Source: Candidatus Hadarchaeales archaeon (GTDB taxonomy: Archaea > Hadarchaeota > Hadarchaeia > Hadarchaeales > Hadarchaeaceae). Taken from it: DNA of 13,359 nt. The notes under the pieces were generated by a model, which had not been told where the DNA came from, made no database searches, and saw only the letters and a program-made list of their open reading frames with translations. The position numbers were made by a program, and so were the translations under genes. The stretch's first letter is position 1. Every line of letters starts with the position of its first letter. The stretch lies in assembly GCA_038872135.1 (NCBI GenBank), contig JAVZGN010000018.1, forward strand, positions 8,302 through 21,660, given 5' to 3'. Positions 2,233-11,325 of this stretch are shown one piece after another.

Positions 2233-2574
2233 TTATCGTTTTCCCACGATCATTTTCATAACTCTTCTGCCATACGGGGTCAAGCTAAAGATGATGAAGT
2301 TTCTCACTTTCTTCGCTTTTATCAGCCCGGCTCTCTTCAACAACCGGAGATGATATGAGAGTCTCGGATAGTCGTATTTCGCCAAGGAGACAAAAACGCA
2401 TACGCATAGCTCCCTGACCTCAAGCGCCCTTAAAATTTTCAATCTGATCGGGTGGGAAAGAACCTCGAGCAACTTGAGAGGTTCACTTGGTGTTTCCCTC
2501 AGCCTTTTCTTTATCTTCAAGATCTCTCTCTTAGAAAGCTTATAGTCCGGTGGAAACCTGCACCTGAGTGACAT
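2233..2574 (-). CDS. arsR: ArsR/SmtB family metalloregulator (As(III)-sensing type)
   Basis: LSHPIRLKIL, ELCVC metal-binding motif, LSYHLRLLKRAGLI helix-turn-helix; adjacent to acr3. ATG at 2574 preferred over TTG at 2577. Confidence 0.88.
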   Translation of the reverse strand: MSLRCRFPPDYKLSKREILKIKKRLRETPSEPLKLLEVLSHPIRLKILRALEVRELCVCVFVSLAKYDYPRLSYHLRLLKRAGLIKAKKVRNFIIFSLTPYGRRVMKMIVGKR

Positions 2575-2580
2575 CAAATT

Positions 2581-3627
2581 CTATTGCTTTTTTGCTCCAA
2601 AAAATCCTCTAGTTTTTCTGCACAGCCATACGAGGAAGAGCATGATGGGGACTTCGGTTAGTACTCCTACAACCGTGGCGAGGGCAGCCCCAGACTTCAC
2701 CCCAAAGAGAGTTGTGGCCACAGCAATCGAGACCTCAAAGTGGTTACTTCCGGCGATTATTGCCGTTGGCGCAGCGTCTTCATATCCCAGATGAATCGCC
2801 CTTGCAACCAGATATGTTATCGCGAATACCAGGATAATGTTCACAAAAATTCCGGTGGTGATCATGGCGATTATCCCTGGAAGCTCCAAAATTATTTTTC
2901 CCTGATATGAGAAGAGGATGACAAGGGTTATGAGAAGCGCTGCTATCGCCATTTTGCCCAGTTTTGGTAGAAGCTTCTTCTGAAACCACTGCATGCCCTT
3001 TTTCTTTATGGCTAATCGTCTCGTGAAATACCCAGCCACAAGTGGTGTGCAGATGTAGATAGCTACTGCGAGAGCGATCGTGAGCCACGGGACAACTATC
3101 CCGGAAATCCCGAGGAGGAAAGTAGCAAGAGGTGCATAGAGGAAAACCATTGAAAGGGAGTTTATGGCCGTCATCACGAGGGTATGAGCCATATTTCCCT
3201 CCGCCAGGTAGCTCCACATCAGAACCATTGCCGTGCATGGGGCAACACCCAAGAGAATCATCCCGGCCTTATATCCTTGGGCCTGTTCCGGGGAAATGAA
3301 GGAACCAAACATCAGTGAAAGGAAGAACCACGCGAAGAGTGCCATTGTAAACGGCTTCACGGCCCAGTTCATGAAAAGCGTTAGTCCAATTGGTTTTGGC
3401 TCTCTCACAGCTTTTTTCACTTCGCTGAAAGGGATTTGAACCATTATTGGATAAATCATGGCGAACAGGCATATCGCGATTGGGATTGAGATGTTTGCGA
3501 TTTCCAGCGTAGCTAAAACCTCAGAAATTTCTGGCAACACTTTTCCAAGAAAAAGCCCGGCAAGTATACATAGAAATACCCAGATGCTAAGATATTTTTC
3601 CCATAATCCTAGCGATTTCTTCTGCAT
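2581..3627 (-). CDS. acr3: Acr3 family arsenite efflux transporter
   Basis: EKYLSIWV, MIYPIM, NWAVKPFTM, GVAPCTAMVLMW with the conserved Cys, SNHFEVSIAVA and VVGVLTEVP; about 10 hydrophobic segments. Confidence 0.95.
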   Translation of the reverse strand: MQKKSLGLWEKYLSIWVFLCILAGLFLGKVLPEISEVLATLEIANISIPIAICLFAMIYPIMVQIPFSEVKKAVREPKPIGLTLFMNWAVKPFTMALFAWFFLSLMFGSFISPEQAQGYKAGMILLGVAPCTAMVLMWSYLAEGNMAHTLVMTAINSLSMVFLYAPLATFLLGISGIVVPWLTIALAVAIYICTPLVAGYFTRRLAIKKKGMQWFQKKLLPKLGKMAIAALLITLVILFSYQGKIILELPGIIAMITTGIFVNIILVFAITYLVARAIHLGYEDAAPTAIIAGSNHFEVSIAVATTLFGVKSGAALATVVGVLTEVPIMLFLVWLCRKTRGFFGAKKQ

Positions 3628-3632
3628 AGTAT

Positions 3633-3660
3633 TTAAAAATATTTTTAACTATTATTTAAA
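3633..3660 (-). promoter_or_regulatory. acr3 promoter (TATA box TTTAAATA, 3660-3653) with 16-bp palindromic operator (3633-3648)
   Basis: TATA box about 26 bp upstream of the acr3 ATG (leaderless spacing). Perfect palindrome TTAAAAAT/ATTTTTAA lies between the TATA box and the start. Confidence 0.6.
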
Positions 3661-4193
3661 CATTTAGAAATGATACATGTAGGAGGGATCTCTTTTGCTA
3701 AATATACCTCCTCCGAGGCTTTCAGTATCTTTACGCCAAGTTCCTTTGCTTTTTTCACATCAATCTTTAGCACCACAGGATTTTTTGAGTGCCTTTTTGC
3801 AACTTTTAGGGCTTCCGCGGGAGTTCTGGAAAGATGGACCATAAGTCTTCTCATAGGCTTCAGCCCCTCCTTCATGATTTTTTCTAGCATTTCTGATGCG
3901 GTACCATGGTAGAGAACATCGACTTCAGCTTCAGGTAGATTTATCCGAACTGGGACCGAGTGCCCATACTTTGCCCTTATAAAACCCTCCTTTCTCTCGT
4001 ACCTTCCTTTTTTGTCAAGGTTCACGATTTCTATAAGATGGTCAGAAGTTACCCACGGAAACCTTCTCCTGAGCCTTTCGAGCACCTCTTTCTCAGAAAC
4101 AAACCCATTATCCGATCTGCGCACGCCGATATCGTGCCTTAGGATATACGCCAATGATTTGCTCAGCCTTTCCCTGAGCTTAGGCTCAAGCAT
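3645..4193 (-). CDS. kptA: RNA 2'-phosphotransferase Tpt1/KptA (NAD-dependent)
   Basis: SKSLAYILRH, KGRYE, IRAKYGHS, LYHGT and GLKPMRRLMVHLS; the catalytic Arg/His/Arg/Arg set appears present. Confidence 0.94.
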   Translation of the reverse strand: MLEPKLRERLSKSLAYILRHDIGVRRSDNGFVSEKEVLERLRRRFPWVTSDHLIEIVNLDKKGRYERKEGFIRAKYGHSVPVRINLPEAEVDVLYHGTASEMLEKIMKEGLKPMRRLMVHLSRTPAEALKVAKRHSKNPVVLKIDVKKAKELGVKILKASEEVYLAKEIPPTCIISKCLNNS

Positions 4194-4194
4194 C

Positions 4195-5340
4195 TTATCT
4201 CTTCCTGTAGCTCTTCCTGTAGACCGCTCTGTACTTCCCTGTCTTCTTGGGCTTCCTTAAGAACTCCTCCGGAAGCTCCTCGGTTTCCTCCCGGCAGGTT
4301 GGGCAGAGGAGAATAAGGTTTGATAAATCATCTCCCTCTTCTGGGTTTATCCTGTAAACCTTCACTCCATCCTCAGCCATGCACATCTCGCATCGCCCAC
4401 CCAAAATTTCGGACGCAAACATGAAAAAGAGCCTATCGGCCAGCATCTCCAGCTTGTCCCTCTTCTCAAGTTTTTCCAGCCACTCTCCAGGAATGGAATC
4501 CTCCCCGAGAAACGCCCCAGCGAGTCCGCCAGCCATGGAGGCAATTGTGTCAGCGTCTCCCCCCAACGCGGCAGAATTGAGGACAGTTTTTCTGAAGTCA
4601 GCGGGAAAAGAGAGGAAGAAGAAGATGGCAGCTGGAACGGAGTTCTGGGCCCCCCCGCCATTTCCAAGTCTCTCCACAATTTCCCGCTGGTCGAATGGTT
4701 TCGAGAGCAGAGAACCGATTTCATTCAGCTTTGTCAAGTACTCTTCACACCTTCCCGCCTCAACGAGCCTTCTCAAAAACTCATCCCTAGAAATCTCCTC
4801 GGTGATGCCACTTCTCGTGGCCATAGCAACTCCAAGAGCCTGCAAAACTGCTCCTTCAACCCCAAGGATGTGTGTGTGGGTAACTCTGCTTGTCGCTTCT
4901 GCCACCTCCCTCACTTTATCCAAATCATTGTTGTAGAGAAGGCCCACTGGAACTACTCTCATGGCCGCTCCATTCCCATACGACCCTTTGCCCCCCATCA
5001 CTTCTTTCGCAGGGACATCCCACCTTTCTCCAGCCTTAAGTCTCTGAATGACTATCGATGTTGTGTAACCATAGCCCCTCAAAGGATTGAAGTTGCTGAC
5101 GAAAGTCCTCGCCATGTCCTCTCCATTGAAGCCCTTGCATCTCACCAGAGATTCTGCAACGCCGATCGTCATCTCCGTGTCGTCCGTGAACTCCAGCCTT
5201 TCCCTCGAACCGGCGCTCTTCTCTACCTCTTCCAGGGAAGTCGGGGATCCACCCTCAAAGGGCGCACCAATCGCATCCCCAACAGCGACGCCCAGCATCG
5301 CCCCGCGAAATTTTTTTCTATAGTCAATTTTCGAAATCAT
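4195..5340 (-). CDS. ADP-ribosylglycohydrolase (DraG/ARH family) with C-terminal CxxC...CxxC HNH-like extension
   Basis: GAMLGVAVGDAIGAPFE, FTDDTEM, SYGNGAAMR, SRVTH and GGDADTIASMAG, with metal-binding Asp residues intact. Tail CEMC...DDLSNLILLCPTC followed by a basic terminus. Confidence 0.92.
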   Translation of the reverse strand: MISKIDYRKKFRGAMLGVAVGDAIGAPFEGGSPTSLEEVEKSAGSRERLEFTDDTEMTIGVAESLVRCKGFNGEDMARTFVSNFNPLRGYGYTTSIVIQRLKAGERWDVPAKEVMGGKGSYGNGAAMRVVPVGLLYNNDLDKVREVAEATSRVTHTHILGVEGAVLQALGVAMATRSGITEEISRDEFLRRLVEAGRCEEYLTKLNEIGSLLSKPFDQREIVERLGNGGGAQNSVPAAIFFFLSFPADFRKTVLNSAALGGDADTIASMAGGLAGAFLGEDSIPGEWLEKLEKRDKLEMLADRLFFMFASEILGGRCEMCMAEDGVKVYRINPEEGDDLSNLILLCPTCREETEELPEEFLRKPKKTGKYRAVYRKSYRKR

Positions 5341-6125
5341 AGAATCTCCGTCTCTTTTTGAACATCCAGTTCTCTCTCTTTCCCGAGAGCCCTTTCTATT
5401 GCAGCAAGTAGCTCAACTATTCCGCTGTTATGGGTGGCGGAAACCGCCAGGAGCTCGCCGGAAAAGCTCATCTTCTCGATGCTTTCTAAAATCCCGATGG
5501 CAGTCTCTCTCTCAAGAGGATTCGGCTCTTCCATGAGAGCCTCGAGTAACATACTTTTTTTCTCCATCCATCCCGCAGTCCTTTCCAGGACAGCCGGCTC
5601 AACAGCATCAGATTTCGTAAGAACATTTAACTGAGGTCTTCTGAACCTTGCGATAACCGAGGATGCGAGCATTAGCATCGAAACAAAGGAGCTGGGATTT
5701 TTTGCAAAAAATGAATCTATCAGAAACAGGACCATTGAATCTCCAGCTGGGCTAAGGCTCTCGACAACGGCGGGTCCGGTTTCCCTGAAGGCAAAGAGCT
5801 CCATCTGGCCAGGGGTGTCGACAATCACATAATCAACGTTCCACTTCTCCACCATCTCCCTGATCTCTGGAAGATGGTTGACAACAAGATCTACAGCCAC
5901 TATCAAAGCACCATTTGGACCCAACCGGAACTCTTTCATCACATCTGAAAGGGAGACATAGGTCCTGATGTCTATGTCTGGTGTGTAGGGGAGCCATTCA
6001 ACTCCTGGATCAAGATTGATCGTGATGGAATCTAGCTCTTGGGCGGAGATTGCATCGTGGAGGGCGGAAGTCAGGGTGGACTTCCCACATCCCGCCGGGC
6101 CCATGAGATATATGAGAGACGGCAT
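5337..6125 (-). CDS. GPN-loop GTPase
   Basis: GPAGCGKST P-loop, NLDPG, LGPNG signature, DTPGQME, TKSD and VSA. Stop overlaps the next start (ATGA). Confidence 0.93.
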   Translation of the reverse strand: MPSLIYLMGPAGCGKSTLTSALHDAISAQELDSITINLDPGVEWLPYTPDIDIRTYVSLSDVMKEFRLGPNGALIVAVDLVVNHLPEIREMVEKWNVDYVIVDTPGQMELFAFRETGPAVVESLSPAGDSMVLFLIDSFFAKNPSSFVSMLMLASSVIARFRRPQLNVLTKSDAVEPAVLERTAGWMEKKSMLLEALMEEPNPLERETAIGILESIEKMSFSGELLAVSATHNSGIVELLAAIERALGKERELDVQKETEIL

Positions 6126-6151: not shown

Positions 6152-7240
6152 TTAAGGCTTTTTCTCCCAGAACAGGAGGGCCTCCCTCATTTTACCGATT
6201 TTTTTCCTTGAGGGGGTTGTGCACCACCGCTCGTTGACAACGAGAATTTTTTTCACTTTGAACCCGACTTCCTTTGCGATCTCACCGGTCTTTTCGCACA
6301 CCTCCACAACGCCATCTCTCGAGCCACCATCTGAGACAACGAAGCAAACTCTCGCCCCCGCCCCGCAAGCATCAAACAGTCTTGCGATGGCGATTTCGAG
6401 ATTTTGAAAATATCTCTCTGCAGTTTCTTCAAGGGTGCTCCCTGAGGAAGAAAAGTTGAGAAAGAGTTCTTTATTCTGGACGGGTGTTCTGAAAAGCCAT
6501 TCCTCCAGCCCATACACTGAGATGTATTCCTCTTTCATAAGATAGGGAGGAGAGGTAATGATTGCCGATACAGGTTTCTCCGGCTTCATCTCCCTTGCAT
6601 CTTTGAACTCAAGTTTCGTCGAGCATTCTTTTCGCCGGAAAATTTTCAGATCTCCGATCATCCTCTCAATCTCTTTTTTGAGGGCAACCTTCAGATTCCC
6701 CCCTCCTCCACTTTTTCTCAAAACCGCGCCATCTTTGGAAACTCCTCCAGCCCGCAAGGCGGCGTTTCGGAGAGCCAAAAGAAGAAGCCCTTGAACATCT
6801 TCCCTATCGATTTCAGAGATTTTTTGCATGAAAAAAGCGATGTCCTCCAGTAAACCTCTTGGGAAAACTCTCTCCAGTTTTCGAGCCGTGTCGATCTCCA
6901 CTTTTTCAAATTTACTACTCAAAATTTCATTTGCAAACTTTTGAATACCAGCAATCTCATACTCTCTCGTTTTTACCTTCGAGATGAAAAAAAGGACCGG
7001 ATGGACATCGCATCCAAGACAGTCGATTCCTCGCTCCTGGCATGCAAGCAGAACAGTTCCGGCCCCACAGAAAGGATCATAAACAAAATCTCCCTTCCCG
7101 AGGCGCCAAGAGTCTGCTAAAAGATGTACAAGGGCGCTTGAGAAGGATTCTTTCATCAAAAACCAGCGATAAACAGGCCTGCGCCTGTCTGTGAGAGGTG
7201 TCACCAGATTCTTTAACCTAAAATTTTTTGTGATTTTCAT
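6152..7240 (-). CDS. SAM-dependent amino-methyltransferase (N4-cytosine/N6-adenine DNA methylase-like), orphan
   Basis: Motif I VYDPFCGAGT, motif IV ITSPPY, N-terminal PVYRWFLMKESFS. Start moved to ATG 7240 because the longer ORF call runs antisense through the RNase P RNA gene. Confidence 0.8.
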   Translation of the reverse strand: MKITKNFRLKNLVTPLTDRRRPVYRWFLMKESFSSALVHLLADSWRLGKGDFVYDPFCGAGTVLLACQERGIDCLGCDVHPVLFFISKVKTREYEIAGIQKFANEILSSKFEKVEIDTARKLERVFPRGLLEDIAFFMQKISEIDREDVQGLLLLALRNAALRAGGVSKDGAVLRKSGGGGNLKVALKKEIERMIGDLKIFRRKECSTKLEFKDAREMKPEKPVSAIITSPPYLMKEEYISVYGLEEWLFRTPVQNKELFLNFSSSGSTLEETAERYFQNLEIAIARLFDACGAGARVCFVVSDGGSRDGVVEVCEKTGEIAKEVGFKVKKILVVNERWCTTPSRKKIGKMREALLFWEKKP

Positions 7241-7276: not shown

Positions 7277-7574
7277 GCCGGCGAGCTGGTGGGCGATCAC
7301 GGGCGAAAGCCTGAGGAAACTCCGCCCATCCGGCAGCAGCGCAGCCCCCCAAGGGGTCCGGCCGAGAGGCTGGCAAGCGAAAAAAGAAACGGAACCCCGC
7401 GGTCCGTGGCAAGGATGCTGTAAAGCTGAGGTCGGGCCGATTGGGGATGAAACGGTTCGCTTGGCGTGGATGCAAGGGCAAGCTTCCACCGATGAGCGCT
7501 GCCTGAGGTGGGTGGTGGCCCGCTTAGACAGATGTCGCCTAAAACAGAAGGCGGGTTACGGCCAGCACGCCGGC
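7277..7574 (+). ncRNA. rnpB: Archaeal RNase P RNA, type A
   Basis: CR-I GAGGAAACUCCGCC (7313-7326) and CR-V AACAGAAGGCGGGUUA (7543-7558) form P4. P1 GCCGGCG.GCUGGU/GCCAGC.CGCCGGC, P3 CGGGC-GAAA-GCCUG, P5 CAUCC/GGAUG, P6 GGCAGC/GCUGCC, P8 GCCCC/GGGGU, P9 CCGGCC-GAGA-GGCUGG, P10/11 CAAGCGA/UCGCUUG, AGAAAC and UGAAAC in CR-II/III, P16 CCACC/GGUGG. Confidence 0.96.
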
Positions 7575-7623: not shown

Positions 7624-8679
7624 TTATTTGCCCATTACCATTGCCATTACTGCTTTTTGTACATGAAGCCTGTTTTCAGCCTCTTCAAAGTACAGTGAGC
7701 GCTTGTAGGTGTCAAGGACTTCATCGGTGACTTCCTGTCCCCTGTCTGCCGGGCCACAGTGCATGTAGTAAGCTTTGTTTGTGACATCGAGCAGCTCCAT
7801 CGTTGTTATCCAGTTCTTGAACTTATCTTGGTACTTTGAAGCTCCCTCCTTGTCCACGGTTTTGTTATAGGGTGGAACGAACTGCTTTGGAGACCAAGCT
7901 TTCGGGTAGACGAAGTCGGCTCCTTCAAAAGCCTCCTTCATATCGTTGCAGATTTCAAAGCTTCCACCGTACTTATCCGCATTTTCCTTTGCCGCCTTGA
8001 TTACGCTGTCTTCCAGCTCAAAGCCCTTCGGATGGGCCAGCACCACATCCATCCCCATCTGGGTTGTTATGAGGACCTCGCTCTGTGGGACGGCCAGCGG
8101 CTTCAGACCCCCAGAGTATGCATAAGAAACAACGAATTTCTTTCCCTGAAGCTTTGGCTCAACCTCTCTGGCCGCCTGTATGTCCGCGAGCGCCTGGAAT
8201 GGATGGTATAGGTCATCTTCCATGTTGAGGACTGGGATGTCCCCCCACTTCGCGAATTCCTCGATCACCCTGTGTCCCCTCCCGATTGTCCATTTTGCTG
8301 CGTCACCGTAGATTCTTATCGCGATTGCATCCCCGTACCTGCTGAGAACTCTTGCAACATCTGAGATGGCCTCGGTAGCATACGGCACCATGTCTTCTGG
8401 AAGGGTCGGTGTATAGAGGTCCTGAGGGCTGAGGAAGTGTGCATGCCCCCCAAGCTGGTAAATCCCTGCCTCAAAAGAGTTTCTCGTCCTGAGAGACCTG
8501 TTGTAGAAGATCATGAACAGGGTCCTCCCAGGCAGATAGTTGGTTGGCTCCCGGCTGTGGAATTTTTTCTTCAGGTCGTCTGCAGCGTCCAGGATTTTGA
8601 TTATCTGCTCTTGGCTGAAGTCCTGGGTGTTCAAGAAGTCCTTTCCCTTCATTGCGCCCACGTATTTTGGTACCGCCAT
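7624..8679 (-). CDS. Carbamoyltransferase, ornithine carbamoyltransferase superfamily (N-acetylornithine/YgeW-like knotted subgroup)
   Basis: KDFL..QDFS, SLRTRNSFE, HPFQALAD, YAYSGGLKPLAVPQS, DFVYPKAW, YMHCGPADRG.EV and EAENRLHVQKA. Strong RBS GAGGTGA at 8690-8684. Confidence 0.85.
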   Translation of the reverse strand: MAVPKYVGAMKGKDFLNTQDFSQEQIIKILDAADDLKKKFHSREPTNYLPGRTLFMIFYNRSLRTRNSFEAGIYQLGGHAHFLSPQDLYTPTLPEDMVPYATEAISDVARVLSRYGDAIAIRIYGDAAKWTIGRGHRVIEEFAKWGDIPVLNMEDDLYHPFQALADIQAAREVEPKLQGKKFVVSYAYSGGLKPLAVPQSEVLITTQMGMDVVLAHPKGFELEDSVIKAAKENADKYGGSFEICNDMKEAFEGADFVYPKAWSPKQFVPPYNKTVDKEGASKYQDKFKNWITTMELLDVTNKAYYMHCGPADRGQEVTDEVLDTYKRSLYFEEAENRLHVQKAVMAMVMGK

Positions 8680-10359: not shown

Positions 10360-11325
10360 CTAATCTGGAACGATGTGAGTGCCCGTTTTGCCATCCAGTG
10401 CTTCCGTTACTTTGTCCAGAGCAGAGATTATCGCCCTCTTGCCGCCCCATTTCAAGAACCGAATACATGCCTTTACCTTTGGCCCCATGCTTCCAGCTAA
10501 AAAGTGTCCTTCTGCGAGATATTTTTCAGCCTCTGAAACAGTCATGCGGTCGATTTCTTTTTCATTAGGTTTCCCAAAGTTCAGCTTCACTTTTTCAACA
10601 TCCGTGAGGATCAGGAAGGTGTCGGCTCCAACAACCTCTGCCAACTTCTCTCCCGCCAGATCCTTGTCTATAACCGCTTCAACGCCTCTCCTGTGCCCGT
10701 CGGGATCTAGAACAACTGGTATTCCCCCACCACCTGAAGCGATCACTATAACACCGCTGTCAACAAGCCTTCTGATGGCCTCCGCCTCAACATTGGCTTT
10801 TGGGTCTGGCGATGGAACCACTCGTCTCCAAACCCTCCCCTCTCCCGGTTTCACTTTTTTGAATATATACTCTGGATGCTCTTGTTTGATTTTTTTAACT
10901 TCTTCTTCGGTGAGGAAGTTCCCAACGGGTTTTGATGCATTTTCTCCGACAAACTCTGGGTCATCTCTGCTCACTTCCACCCGGTTCACAACAGCGATCA
11001 CCGGGATATTTAGGCCGAGATCTCTGAGCTGGTTGTCGAGCATCTGTTGCAGCATGTAGCCGATCTGCCCTTGGGTCATCGCTCCGAGGACATCCAGGTC
11101 CTGCGGGGGGATGACATCTCTGGCAATATCGTTTTGGACGGCAAGATTTCCAACTTGGGGTCCGTTGCCGTGGGTGATTATTAGCCTATCCTCAGGTCCC
11201 ATGCGCTTCACGACCTTTGCGAGCAGTGTTGCTGTCTTTTTGCAGTTTAGGAATTGCTCCAGCGTTGTGCCCTTTTCATGCGCCTGCTTGATTGCATTTC
11301 CGCCAAGAGCCACCAGTAGCCTCAT
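10360..11325 (-). CDS. arcC: Carbamate kinase
   Basis: VALGGNA, ITHGNGPQVG, SKPVG, WRRVVPSP, GGGGIPV, EAVIDKD, LTDV and GSMGPKV. Confidence 0.95.
   Translation of the reverse strand: MRLLVALGGNAIKQAHEKGTTLEQFLNCKKTATLLAKVVKRMGPEDRLIITHGNGPQVGNLAVQNDIARDVIPPQDLDVLGAMTQGQIGYMLQQMLDNQLRDLGLNIPVIAVVNRVEVSRDDPEFVGENASKPVGNFLTEEEVKKIKQEHPEYIFKKVKPGEGRVWRRVVPSPDPKANVEAEAIRRLVDSGVIVIASGGGGIPVVLDPDGHRRGVEAVIDKDLAGEKLAEVVGADTFLILTDVEKVKLNFGKPNEKEIDRMTVSEAEKYLAEGHFLAGSMGPKVKACIRFLKWGGKRAIISALDKVTEALDGKTGTHIVPD

What the first reader, a model, noticed from the sequence alone, without database searches (positions are those of the whole stretch)
3645..5340. Coupled Tpt1/KptA + ADP-ribosylglycohydrolase: candidate writer/eraser module for nucleic-acid ADP-ribosylation
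Seen: the ARH stop (4195) and kptA start (4193) are 1 bp apart and both proteins keep their catalytic motifs. Established: Tpt1/KptA uses NAD+ to remove RNA 2'-phosphates through an ADP-ribosylated intermediate, releasing ADP-ribose 1''-2''-cyclic phosphate. Some homologs, including archaeal ones, also cap 5'-phosphorylated RNA/DNA with ADP-ribose, and ARH3-type enzymes can remove such caps. Inference: this ARH reverses Tpt1-made caps, resolves stalled intermediates or recycles the by-product. That would give an archaeal ARH a nucleic-acid substrate in a housekeeping RNA-processing locus.
Basis: partly seen in the sequence, partly recalled or inferred. Interest (0 to 1): 0.8.

Follow-up and report, generated by a model that had tools for sequence, protein, structure and literature searches.

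The report
Tpt1/KptA gene behind tailed ADP-ribosylhydrolase
A small archaeal genome places an RNA 2'-phosphotransferase gene directly behind an ADP-ribose-removing enzyme, but this pairing occurs in only two genera, and the hydrolase is more constantly partnered with an upstream GTPase and carries a DNA/RNA-binding-type tail.

Summary
An ARH3-type ADP-ribosylhydrolase (4195-5340, minus strand) ends 1 nt before a Tpt1/KptA gene (3645-4193), and both keep their catalytic residues.

The writer/eraser reading is only partly supported. Of 59 genomes examined that hold both genes, 4 have them adjacent, all in two genera of one family. None of 160 ARH loci outside the phylum had kptA nearby, and no fusion was found. 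Each gene also persists without the other in sister lineages. Tight spacing is normal in this compact genome.

The older unit is GPN-loop GTPase followed by ARH, start and stop overlapping or at most 10 nt apart. It occurs in 9 of 9 genomes whose ARH has a roughly 70-residue C-terminal extension. That extension is a nuclease-dead HNH-type zinc finger plus a basic tail. In other genera of the phylum the same extension sits on a HAD hydrolase instead.

Best reading: the ARH is a hydrolase tethered to a macromolecule, and its core job does not depend on KptA. Where kptA is co-expressed, the ARH may also clear KptA's ADP-ribose side products. This is a lead, not a demonstrated module.

The parts
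5337..6125 (-). GPN-loop GTPase gene (262 aa). Its stop overlaps the ARH start by 4 nt (ATGA).
   Evidence: PF03029 at 196.3 bits; NCBIfam GTPase NF010340 at 287.6 bits, just under its cut-off of 293. The G69-P70-N71 motif is invariant in 8 of 8 orthologues. The gene lies directly upstream of the tailed ARH in 9 of 9 genomes.
4195..5340 (-). ARH3-type ADP-ribosylhydrolase gene (381 aa, stop codon included).
   Evidence: PF03747 at 231.4 bits. Best solved relatives are ARH3 (2qty, E 1.3e-44), ahead of MJ1187 (5.3e-28) and DraG. AlphaFold2 model pLDDT 86.6. Foldseek best hits are ARH3 (E 2.3e-18, TM by target 0.81-0.86).
4486..5304 (-). ADP-ribosylglycohydrolase catalytic domain (residues 13-285) with metal-site motifs T52-D53-D54-T55 and D262-A-D264-T265, plus E29.
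   Evidence: Pfam stretch 13-285; invariant columns in 12 of 12 orthologues; residues read out.
4276..4404 (-). HNH-derived zinc finger (residues 313-355). It has C317-x2-C320 and C346-x2-C349 and retains N341. The two His positions of true HNH enzymes are Y329 and R350 here.
   Evidence: The four Cys and N341 are invariant in 9 of 9 tails. Sub-threshold PF01844 hits, E 0.0035-0.0092, in 3 of 3 tails tested. Of the 19 weaker profile hits scanned, 14 are true HNH proteins. The model shows a beta-beta-alpha unit with pLDDT 82-86. Compared with the true HNH protein P0019.
4198..4275 (-). Basic C-terminal tail (residues 356-381), 11 Lys/Arg in 26 residues, with the conserved core K-x-G-K-Y-R-A-V-Y-R-K.
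   Evidence: K366, G368, K369, Y370, R371, Y374, R375 and K376 are invariant. Composition. Modelled with pLDDT below 50. It is the only such motif in the genome's six-frame ORFs of 100 aa or more.
3645..4193 (-). Tpt1/KptA RNA 2'-phosphotransferase gene (182 aa). It starts 1 nt after the ARH stop.
   Evidence: PF01885 at 115.6 bits. Best solved relatives are archaeal Tpt1 structures (8tfi, E 5.4e-40; 1wfx, 1.5e-34). Tetrad R19/H20/R73/R116 is invariant in 9 of 9.
6152..7240 (-). Context: SAM-dependent methyltransferase homologue upstream of the GTPase gene. The true start is probably near 7240.
   Evidence: PF01555 and PF01170 hits. Homologues are 354-415 aa and sit upstream of the GTPase gene in six of the seven ARH-bearing genomes of the window's two genera. 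The first part of the 445-aa ORF overlaps the RNase P RNA gene. The 7240 start is inferred from the sequence.
2233..3627 (-). Context: ACR3-type transporter homologue (2581-3627) and ArsR-family regulator (2233-2577). They follow kptA after gaps of 17 and 3 nt.
   Evidence: PF01758 and PF01022. The same order is found in G004 and G015. This shows that tight spacing and conserved order here also cover functionally unrelated genes.

Best explanation
Proposal.
- The two genes are real, intact and almost certainly co-transcribed, but kptA is an accessory added to an older two-gene unit.
- That unit is a GPN-loop GTPase gene followed, start and stop overlapping or at most 10 nt apart, by an ARH3-type hydrolase.
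- The hydrolase acquired a C-terminal, nuclease-dead HNH-type zinc finger and a Lys/Arg-rich tail.

Likely mechanism.
- The tail docks the ARH on nucleic acid or on a nucleic-acid-bound protein complex.
- There its two-metal active site hydrolyses ADP-ribose joined through its 1'' oxygen. This is the linkage class ARH3 handles, including ADP-ribose on terminal phosphates of DNA and RNA.
- This job does not need KptA.
- KptA performs its ordinary NAD+-dependent 2'-phosphate removal, from RNA 2'-phosphates or NADP(H).
- In the two genera where kptA sits behind the ARH, co-expression lets the ARH also clear KptA's dead-end 5'-phospho-ADP-ribose caps.
- The relationship is therefore a loose 'producer plus clean-up' association, not an obligate writer/eraser switch.

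Shown: gene structure, family membership, intact catalytic residues, the distribution of adjacency, and the tail architecture.
Inferred: co-transcription, tail function, every substrate, and any action of the ARH on KptA products.
For: - Structure and residues.
- GTPase->ARH adjacency, overlapping or at most 10 nt apart, in 9 of 9 genomes with the tailed ARH. These span three genera in two families. In one genus the run is PolD-DP2 -> GTPase -> ARH in 3 of 3 genomes.
- The tailed ARHs form one group in a 49-row tree built on the catalytic domain only (SH-aLRT 94).
- The tail profile found only ARH-tail and HAD-tail proteins at E <= 1e-10 among 1.84 billion representatives. The next strongest tail-bearing hit was a second HAD-tail protein, P0014, at E 1.4e-5.
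- The same tail sits on a HAD hydrolase in 9 genomes of four other genera, and no kptA was found in any of them.
- ARH->kptA coupling is kept in 4 genomes of 2 genera at about 50% protein identity.
- In vitro precedent that ARH3-type enzymes remove KptA-made phosphate-end ADP-ribose: PMC8883491 and PMC11833690.
- No SIR2 homologue in 5 of 5 genomes tested, so O-acetyl-ADP-ribose is an unlikely substrate.
Against: - No experiment or expression data exists for any step.
- The tail's partner is unknown. It could bind a protein rather than nucleic acid.
- A stand-alone macrodomain protein is present in 5 of 5 genomes tested. It could handle KptA products by itself.
- The Glu corresponding to the ARH3 Glu-flap is not conserved in all orthologues; it is Val in G004 and Gly in a short form.
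- Conserved order in the two genera also covers unrelated genes (ACR3, ArsR), so kptA's position may carry no functional meaning.
- The genomes are 65-95% complete, so 'not found' is not 'absent'.
Confidence: 0.42

Rival explanations
1. Dedicated writer/eraser module. KptA deliberately caps 5'-phosphate RNA or DNA ends with ADP-ribose, and the ARH is its cognate eraser, so the two form a regulatory cycle.
For: - A 1-nt gap, with tight coupling kept in 4 genomes of 2 genera.
- An ARH3-type enzyme with a nucleic-acid-type finger.
- In vitro capping by archaeal Tpt1 and its reversal by ARH3-type enzymes.
- No ArkI-like kinase was detected in the four kptA-bearing genomes, so KptA's known archaeal tRNA substrate may be missing here.
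- KptA is the only ART-fold family found among those searched.
Against: - Only 4 of 59 genomes with both genes have them adjacent.
- The tailed ARH is kept in 5 genomes where no kptA was found, and kptA is kept in 7 where no ARH was found.
- ARH-linked KptAs are not one clade. One groups with a KptA from a genus without ARH (support 98/96).
- No fusion was found.
- 0 of 160 ARH loci elsewhere have kptA nearby.
- The physiological relevance of phosphate-end ADP-ribosylation is itself unsettled (PMC11833690).
Confidence: 0.12
2. No functional link. Two NAD/ADP-ribose-related genes lie side by side because the genome is compact and local gene order is inherited between two related genera.
For: - 7 of 12 same-strand junctions in the window are 17 nt or less.
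- The conserved block also contains ACR3, ArsR and TruA homologues.
- In the same genus, a DUF89 damage-control phosphatase gene takes kptA's place behind the ARH in G002 and G003.
- The two genes are gained and lost independently.
Against: - With one kptA, one ARH and one macrodomain gene found in this 1.08-Mb genome (roughly 1100 genes, my estimate from its size), direct adjacency of two ADP-ribose enzymes by chance is unlikely in any single genome. This is my rough estimate, not a computed one.
Confidence: 0.33
3. The ARH works with the GPN-loop GTPase on a protein client. It would remove ADP-ribose from a subunit of a polymerase or another complex whose assembly the GTPase assists, with the tail docking on that complex. 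KptA would be irrelevant to it.
For: - GTPase->ARH coupling in 9 of 9 genomes.
- DP2 -> GTPase -> ARH in 3 of 3 genomes of one genus.
- The GPN GTPase (PACE12) is known to co-localise with DP2 and other replication genes in other archaea. The same paper speculated about ADP-ribosylation in archaeal replication (PMC2643942, passages).
Against: - No protein ADP-ribosyltransferase was found (SIR2, PARP and DarT each 0 of 5; the PARP and DarT controls were silent).
- HAD-tail genes are not next to the GTPase gene. 1 of 12 loci has it, 1.1 kb away on the opposite strand.
- No literature links GPN GTPases with ADP-ribosylation (8 papers hold both terms; only PMC2643942 was opened, and there the two topics are not linked; the other 7 were judged from titles and abstract openings only).
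Confidence: 0.2
4. Small-molecule recycling. [quoted passage not shown]
For: [quoted passage not shown]
- ARH3 accepts small 1''-O-linked substrates (PMC8883491).
- A damage-control phosphatase gene lies next in the row in three genomes of the genus.
Against: - A macromolecule-docking tail is unnecessary for soluble substrates.
- The ARH persists in genomes where no KptA was found.
- The known route for the cyclic phosphate uses 2H/cyclic phosphodiesterase and macrodomain enzymes, and a macrodomain is present.
Confidence: 0.08

Closest known systems
Archaeal Tpt1/KptA (Pyrococcus horikoshii and Aeropyrum pernix enzymes; PDB 8tfi, 1wfx)
   Same: Same family, same length class (182 aa against 177-186 aa), about E 1e-40 similarity, and the full Arg-His-Arg-Arg tetrad.
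   Different: No activity data. No ArkI-type kinase was detected in the kptA-bearing genomes, so the tRNA 2'-phosphouridine substrate may be lacking. The gene context behind an ARH was not seen in 49 other archaeal genomes holding both genes.
ARH3 (ADPRHL2) and the bacterial ARH3-like SCO5809
   Same: Nearest solved relatives by sequence and fold, with the same metal-site motifs. ARH3-type enzymes remove phosphate-end ADP-ribose made by KptA-like enzymes in vitro.
   Different: This protein adds a roughly 70-residue HNH-derived zinc finger and basic tail, absent from ARH3 and from 160 related loci outside the phylum. It is translationally coupled to a GPN-loop GTPase gene. The Glu-flap position is variable among its orthologues.
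ArkI-KptA writer/eraser pair for tRNA 2'-phosphouridine 47
   Same: It involves archaeal KptA as an NAD+-dependent eraser (PMC9095486).
   Different: There KptA is the eraser, not the writer, and the partner is a kinase. No ArkI-like ORF was found here. There was no ORF with the HGQ and DFE kinase motifs reported for ArkI (PMC9095486), and only Bud32 and Rio1 kinases were found.
Operon-encoded ADP-ribosylation writer/eraser pairs (DraT/DraG, DarT/DarG)
   Same: A transferase-fold gene and a hydrolase gene sit side by side. DraG belongs to the same PF03747 family.
   Different: Those pairs are described as co-occurring systems; this is recalled, plus review passages. Here the two genes occur separately in most related genomes and are adjacent in only 4 of 59 with both.
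GPN-loop GTPase (PACE12) clusters with replication genes in archaea
   Same: A GPN GTPase gene lies behind the PolD large-subunit gene, as reported for Thermoplasmatales (PMC2643942). It was seen here in 3 of 3 genomes of one genus.
   Different: An ARH gene appended to the GTPase gene is not mentioned in that paper or in the archaeal GPN structural paper (terms not found).
Yeast Tpt1 by-product pathway (cyclic phosphodiesterase, then the macrodomain Poa1p)
   Same: It deals with ADP-ribose derivatives released by Tpt1.
   Different: It uses 2H and macrodomain enzymes, not an ARH. A separate macrodomain gene exists elsewhere in this genome.

Membership tests
Tpt1/KptA RNA 2'-phosphotransferase (PF01885) | Profile match above the curated cut-off over the whole domain | tested here: met
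   115.6 bits against 26, profile positions 3-176 of 177. NCBIfam RNA 2'-phosphotransferase models match at E 4e-52 but below their equivalog cut-offs.
Tpt1/KptA RNA 2'-phosphotransferase (PF01885) | [quoted passage not shown] | tested here: met
   R19, H20, R73, R116, invariant in 9 of 9. The tetrad is described in PMC10622864.
Tpt1/KptA RNA 2'-phosphotransferase (PF01885) | NAD+-dependent 2'-phosphate transfer, with 5'-phosphate capping in a subset | not testable with these tools
   Needs an enzyme assay.
ADP-ribosylglycohydrolase family (PF03747), ARH3 type | Profile match and all-helical ARH fold, nearest to ARH3 | tested here: met
   231.4 bits. ARH3 E 1.3e-44 against MJ1187 5.3e-28 and DraG about 1e-16. 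Foldseek TM by target 0.81-0.86 to ARH3.
ADP-ribosylglycohydrolase family (PF03747), ARH3 type | Two-metal site Asp/Thr motifs (TDDT and DxDT) | tested here: met
   T52 D53 D54 T55 and D262 D264 T265 are invariant in 12 of 12.
ADP-ribosylglycohydrolase family (PF03747), ARH3 type | Glu-flap residue (ARH3 E41; numbering recalled) | tested here: inconclusive
   E29 is present in the window protein but is Val in G004 and Gly in G037.
HNH endonuclease (PF01844) | Profile match above cut-off, with the catalytic and metal-binding His residues | tested here: not met
   16.6-17.9 bits against cut-off 21.4. The His positions of the true HNH protein P0019 are Tyr/Cys/Val/Ala and Arg/Lys/Met in the tails. 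I read this as a nuclease-dead derivative. The roles of the His residues are recalled.
GPN-loop GTPase (PF03029) | Profile match, P-loop and Gly-Pro-Asn motif | tested here: met
   196.3 bits. GPAGCGKS and G69-P70-N71 are invariant in 8 of 8.
Obligate ADP-ribosylation writer/eraser operon | Writer and eraser co-occur and stay adjacent across the lineages that have them | tested here: not met
   Adjacent in 4 of 59 genomes with both genes. In the window's own phylum, 12 genomes have ARH and no kptA found, and 7 have kptA and no ARH found.
Obligate ADP-ribosylation writer/eraser operon | The eraser hydrolyses the product of the adjacent writer | not testable with these tools
   Only precedent from other organisms exists.
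ArkI-KptA tRNA phosphorylation system | Presence of an ArkI kinase (ePK-like, with HGQ and DFE motifs) | tested here: not met
   No HGQ...DFE ORF in G000. PF06293 and PF00069 find only a Bud32 homologue in G000, G001, G004 and G015, and the other kinase-like ORF is Rio1. No ArkI sequence was available for a direct search, so a divergent ArkI could be missed.

The most novel reading that the evidence does not exclude
The tail (dead HNH finger plus the K-x-G-K-Y-R-A-V-Y-R-K peptide) is a portable address label. It would send an ARH3-type hydrolase in some genera, and a HAD phosphatase in others, to nucleic-acid ends at the replication/transcription machinery served by the GPN-loop GTPase. Together they would form an archaeal end-cleaning system for ADP-ribose and phosphate adducts. 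KptA would be the endogenous source of 5'-phospho-ADP-ribose caps in the lineages that keep it in the operon. That would make phosphate-end ADP-ribosylation physiologically real in archaea.
Probability: 0.13. Interest if true: 0.8.

Novelty: new variant of a known kind. Interest (0 to 1): 0.45.

Why it matters
Whether ADP-ribose caps on RNA/DNA phosphate ends have any role in cells is unsettled. The reports read here describe them mainly from in vitro work, apart from one report of RNA ADP-ribosylation in human cells (abstract only), and the 2025 paper calls the physiological relevance unclear.

A natural operon joining a Tpt1 to an ARH3-type hydrolase with a nucleic-acid-type finger gives a compact pair of thermophile-style proteins on which to test the idea. 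The comparative data, however, say the link is young and dispensable, which tempers expectations.

Two by-products may be more useful:
- a previously undescribed tail module, shared by an ARH and a HAD hydrolase;
- a conserved GTPase-ARH operon that offers a new handle on the poorly understood archaeal GPN-loop GTPases.

Tried and rejected
1. Complex prediction of a GTPase dimer plus the ARH (after repeated queue-full answers): no answer. It counts neither for nor against binding.
2. Search for longer KptA fusion proteins: 3 proteins of 399 aa with PF01885 only and no ARH fusion. The tool warns that this search is weak evidence.
3. Long open frames around kptA in other archaeal phyla. Three contain a 5-formyltetrahydrofolate cyclo-ligase domain, one a weak 2-thiouracil-desulfurase-like match, and one nothing else. 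None contains an ARH.
4. The metagenome scan with the tailed-ARH alignment returned only untailed relatives at 49% identity or less. It did not enlarge the set of tailed ARHs. The tool may leave out records close to the window's genome.
5. ArkI search by published motifs and by kinase families: negative, but indirect, because I had no ArkI sequence.
6. PARP and DarT family searches: 0 of 5. The control genomes were also silent, so these are weak negatives. Other ART families were not searched.
7. Protein Atlas look-up of the tail: the nearest clusters are HNH proteins at scores of about 0.86. These are leads only.
8. Literature searches.
   - 'GPN-loop' + 'ADP-ribosyl': 8 papers, none relevant; 7 of them were judged from titles and abstract openings only.
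   - A guessed phylum name + 'ADP-ribosylglycohydrolase': 0 papers. The phylum name came from my own guess, not from a tool.
   - 'Tpt1' + 'ADP-ribosylglycohydrolase' + 'gene neighborhood' and 'KptA' + 'ADP-ribosylhydrolase' + 'operon'. No listed title or abstract describes an archaeal kptA-ARH operon.
   - Three of the listed papers (PMC9503650, PMC8883491, PMC11833690) were opened, as passages only.
   - Supplements were not read, including the distribution figure of PMC9095486.
9. I considered that the C-terminal extension might be a separate small gene. This is rejected: the frame is continuous in 9 of 9 genomes.
Full report
**1. What is in the window**

The minus strand carries a run of six closely spaced genes:

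| Gene | Coordinates | Gap to the next gene |
|---|---|---|
| SAM-dependent methyltransferase homologue | 6152 to about 7240 | 26 nt |
| GPN-loop GTPase (PF03029) | 5337-6125 | 4-nt ATGA overlap |
| ADP-ribosylglycohydrolase (PF03747, 381 aa) | 4195-5340 | 1 nt |
| Tpt1/KptA (PF01885, 182 aa) | 3645-4193 | 17 nt |
| ACR3-type transporter homologue | 2581-3627 | 3 nt |
| ArsR-family regulator | 2233-2577 | end of run |

- The ARH/kptA junction reads TAA-g-ATG.
- The window lies in a 1.08-Mb archaeal genome, 91% complete, with one copy of each of the two families.
- The 1-nt gap is not special here: 7 of the 12 same-strand junctions in the window are 17 nt or less.

**2. Are the enzymes intact?**

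- KptA is most similar to the solved archaeal Tpt1 enzymes (8tfi, E 5.4e-40; 1wfx, 1.5e-34).
[quoted passage not shown] The tetrad is described in PMC10622864 (passages).
- The ARH is closest to ARH3 by sequence: 2qty E 1.3e-44, against 5.3e-28 for MJ1187 and about 1e-16 for DraG.
- The ARH is also closest to ARH3 by fold. The AlphaFold2 model has pLDDT 86.6, and the best Foldseek hits are ARH3 with TM by target 0.81-0.86.
- The motifs T52-D53-D54-T55 and D262-x-D264-T265 are invariant in 12 of 12 orthologues.
- E29, at the position of the ARH3 Glu-flap (numbering recalled), is present here but is not conserved in all orthologues.

**3. Is the adjacency conserved?**

Inside the window's phylum and close relatives, 61 genomes were searched:
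- kptA was found in 17 and an ARH in 22. Ten genomes have both.
- In four of the ten, ARH is followed directly by kptA. These are G000 and G001 of the window's genus and G004 and G015 of a second genus of the same family.
- In the other six, all from one genus of another family, the genes lie on different contigs. One of these assemblies (G054) is too fragmented to be sure.
- Twelve genomes have an ARH match and no kptA found. They include two of the window's own genus (G002, G003) and one 27-residue remnant (G009).
- Seven genomes have kptA and no ARH found.

Outside the phylum:
- In a second archaeal phylum, 32 of 201 genomes have kptA. Eight of these also have an ARH, and none has the two adjacent.
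- In a third phylum, 122 of 251 genomes have kptA. I searched the first 80 of those 122: 41 have an ARH and none has it adjacent. The closest pair is 16.7 kb apart.
- Looking from the ARH side, 0 of 80 genome loci (flanks up to 3.5 kb) and 0 of 80 metagenome loci (flanks up to 3 kb, many shorter) encode a KptA.
- Of five genomes carrying these external ARH relatives, one has any kptA.
- A search for longer KptA proteins found no ARH fusion.

In all, 4 of 59 genomes with both genes show adjacency.

**4. What the ARH is really tied to**

- In all nine genomes where the ARH has a C-terminal extension, the GPN-loop GTPase gene lies directly upstream. These are four genomes of the window's genus, two of the second genus, and three of a genus in another family.
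- In most of the nine, the GTPase stop and the ARH start overlap or abut. G015 has a 10-nt gap, and the ARH start in G002 is unclear.
- In the third genus the run is PolD large subunit -> GTPase -> ARH in 3 of 3 genomes, and no kptA was found in those genomes.
- A GPN GTPase (PACE12) next to DP2 is a known archaeal pattern (PMC2643942, passages).
- ARHs without the extension (about 310 aa) lie next to neither the GTPase gene nor kptA.
- On a tree of 49 catalytic domains (tail columns dropped), the nine tailed ARHs fall on one side of a branch (SH-aLRT 94).
- On a small KptA tree (9 rows), the ARH-linked KptAs are not one clade. The G015 KptA groups with a KptA from a genus without ARH (98/96). 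In that genus kptA lies convergent with the methyltransferase homologue.
- In G002 and G003 a DUF89 damage-control phosphatase gene follows the ARH where kptA would be. In G001 the order is ARH-kptA-DUF89.
- The data fit either one gain of kptA behind the ARH with one loss, or an older presence with two losses. I could not decide between them.

**5. The C-terminal extension**

- Residues 313-355 hold C-x2-C ... N ... C-x2-C. The four Cys and the Asn are invariant in 9 of 9 tails.
- Pfam gives sub-threshold HNH matches in 3 of 3 tails tested (E 0.0035-0.0092).
- The model shows a beta-beta-alpha unit at pLDDT 82-86.
- Where a true HNH protein from the search (P0019) has its two His positions, the tails have Tyr/Cys/Val/Ala and Arg/Lys/Met. 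I read this as a nuclease-dead finger. The catalytic role of those His residues is recalled.
- Residues 356-381 are a basic tail with 11 Lys/Arg in 26 residues and an invariant K-x-G-K-Y-R-x-x-Y-R-K core. It is modelled at low confidence.
- A profile of the nine tails was run against 1.84 billion representative proteins. It gave 66 hits at E <= 0.001, of which 5 were at E <= 1e-10. The 5 are two tailed ARHs, two fragments and a HAD-family hydrolase carrying the same tail.
- A second HAD-tail protein scored 1.4e-5. Of the 19 other weak hits I scanned, 14 are true HNH proteins.
- Within the phylum the HAD-tail fusion occurs in nine genomes of four other genera, and no kptA was found in any of them.
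- In the genus whose ARH carries the tail, the HAD orthologue lacks it. In one genus whose ARH lacks the tail, the HAD carries it.
- The tail therefore behaves as a portable module whose target does not depend on KptA.

**6. What KptA may do here**

Documented activities of archaeal Tpt1/KptA:
- erasure of the ArkI-written 2'-phosphouridine 47 mark of tRNA (PMC9095486, passages);
- NADP(H) 2'-phosphate transfer and NAD+ glycohydrolysis (PMC10622864; abstract, introduction and passages);
- 5'-phosphate capping (PMC6182162, abstract).

What the genomes show:
- I found no ArkI-like kinase in the four kptA-bearing genomes. There is no ORF with the published HGQ and DFE motifs in G000.
- The only ePK-like ORFs are a Bud32 and a Rio1 homologue. 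This test is indirect.
- No SIR2 was found in 5 of 5 genomes. A stand-alone macrodomain was found in 5 of 5.
- PARP and DarT were each found in 0 of 5, with silent controls.

**7. Reading**

ARH3 and a bacterial ARH3-like enzyme remove phosphate-end ADP-ribose made by KptA-type enzymes.
- The comparative evidence shows that kptA is a dispensable addition to an older GTPase-ARH(tail) unit.
- The conserved order in the two genera also covers unrelated genes.
- I therefore favour a tethered ARH whose core role is independent of KptA, with clean-up of KptA side products as a plausible secondary role where the two are co-expressed (confidence about 0.4).
- The rivals are pure coincidence of position (about 0.33), a protein-directed role with the GTPase (about 0.2), a dedicated writer/eraser cycle (about 0.12) and small-molecule recycling (about 0.08).
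- An earlier unchecked note of this scan reports KptA, HAD, NADAR and ARH genes in one bacterial cluster (e1-2663614). It slightly raises the odds of a thematic link, but I did not test it.

**8. Limits**

- All genomes other than complete ones are 65-95% complete, so absences are 'not found'.
- Gene starts come from a first-start-codon rule and are uncertain by a few codons. Examples are the kptA start in G004 and the ARH starts in G001, G002 and G003.
- My KptA and GTPase profiles were built from 9 sequences each. The KptA profile did recover KptAs of other phyla at E 1e-45 to 1e-75.
- No transcript data were examined.
- The complex prediction gave no answer and is not used.

Noticed in passing
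window 7281-7570 (+): An archaeal RNase P RNA gene (RF00373, 162.3 bits, full length). It lies divergent from the methyltransferase-GTPase-ARH-kptA run and overlaps the first ~70 codons (7281-7489) of the 445-aa methyltransferase ORF, so that ORF's true start is probably near 7240.
   Followed up: partly
L180-L188 (for example L180:1501-2526, L181:1399-2433): A HAD-family hydrolase carrying the same dead-HNH finger and basic tail as the window's ARH. It occurs in nine genomes of four other genera of the phylum. The tail seems to sit on either the ARH or the HAD, not both.
   Followed up: partly
L006:4846-5664, L007:1-483, L003:5197-5853: A DUF89/ARMT1-type damage-control phosphatase gene follows the ARH directly in two genomes of the window's genus where no kptA was found. 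It follows kptA in a third.
   Followed up: partly
L008:3430-8000, L009:3033-7999, L010:3-4838: In another family of the phylum the order is DNA polymerase D large subunit -> GPN-loop GTPase -> tailed ARH on one strand, in 3 of 3 genomes. One DP2 gene carries a LAGLIDADG (intein-type) domain.
   Followed up: partly
L011, L013, L018: In the genus where kptA and the short ARH are unlinked, kptA lies beside and on the opposite strand to a replication factor C large-subunit homologue in 3 of 3 genomes.
   Followed up: no
L195:729-2141, L196:368-1726, L197:1156-2607: In three genomes of another archaeal phylum, KptA shares one open frame with a 5-formyltetrahydrofolate cyclo-ligase-family domain, in either order. 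It is not decided whether these are fusions or abutting genes.
   Followed up: partly
L194:1137-1920 (G000 contig 28): The genome's only macrodomain gene is followed, with overlap, by a small ORF matching the C-terminal domain of lipoate-protein ligase.
   Followed up: no
L015:3775-5582: In a genus that has kptA but no ARH found, kptA lies convergent with a homologue of the window's methyltransferase. This hints that the locus is a rearranged remnant of the same block.
   Followed up: no
L009 and L010, just downstream of the ARH stop: The sequence after the ARH in two genomes looks like the 5' half of a tRNA gene by eye. It was not scanned.
   Followed up: no
window 7624-8679 and 10360-11325 (-): A carbamoyltransferase (OTCace domains) and an amino-acid-kinase-family gene (possibly carbamate kinase) lie within 3 kb of each other, suggesting an arginine/carbamoyl-phosphate pathway.
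   Followed up: no
G009:C50:5141-5221: A 27-residue match to the start of the ARH family in a 48-aa open frame, possibly a gene remnant.
   Followed up: no
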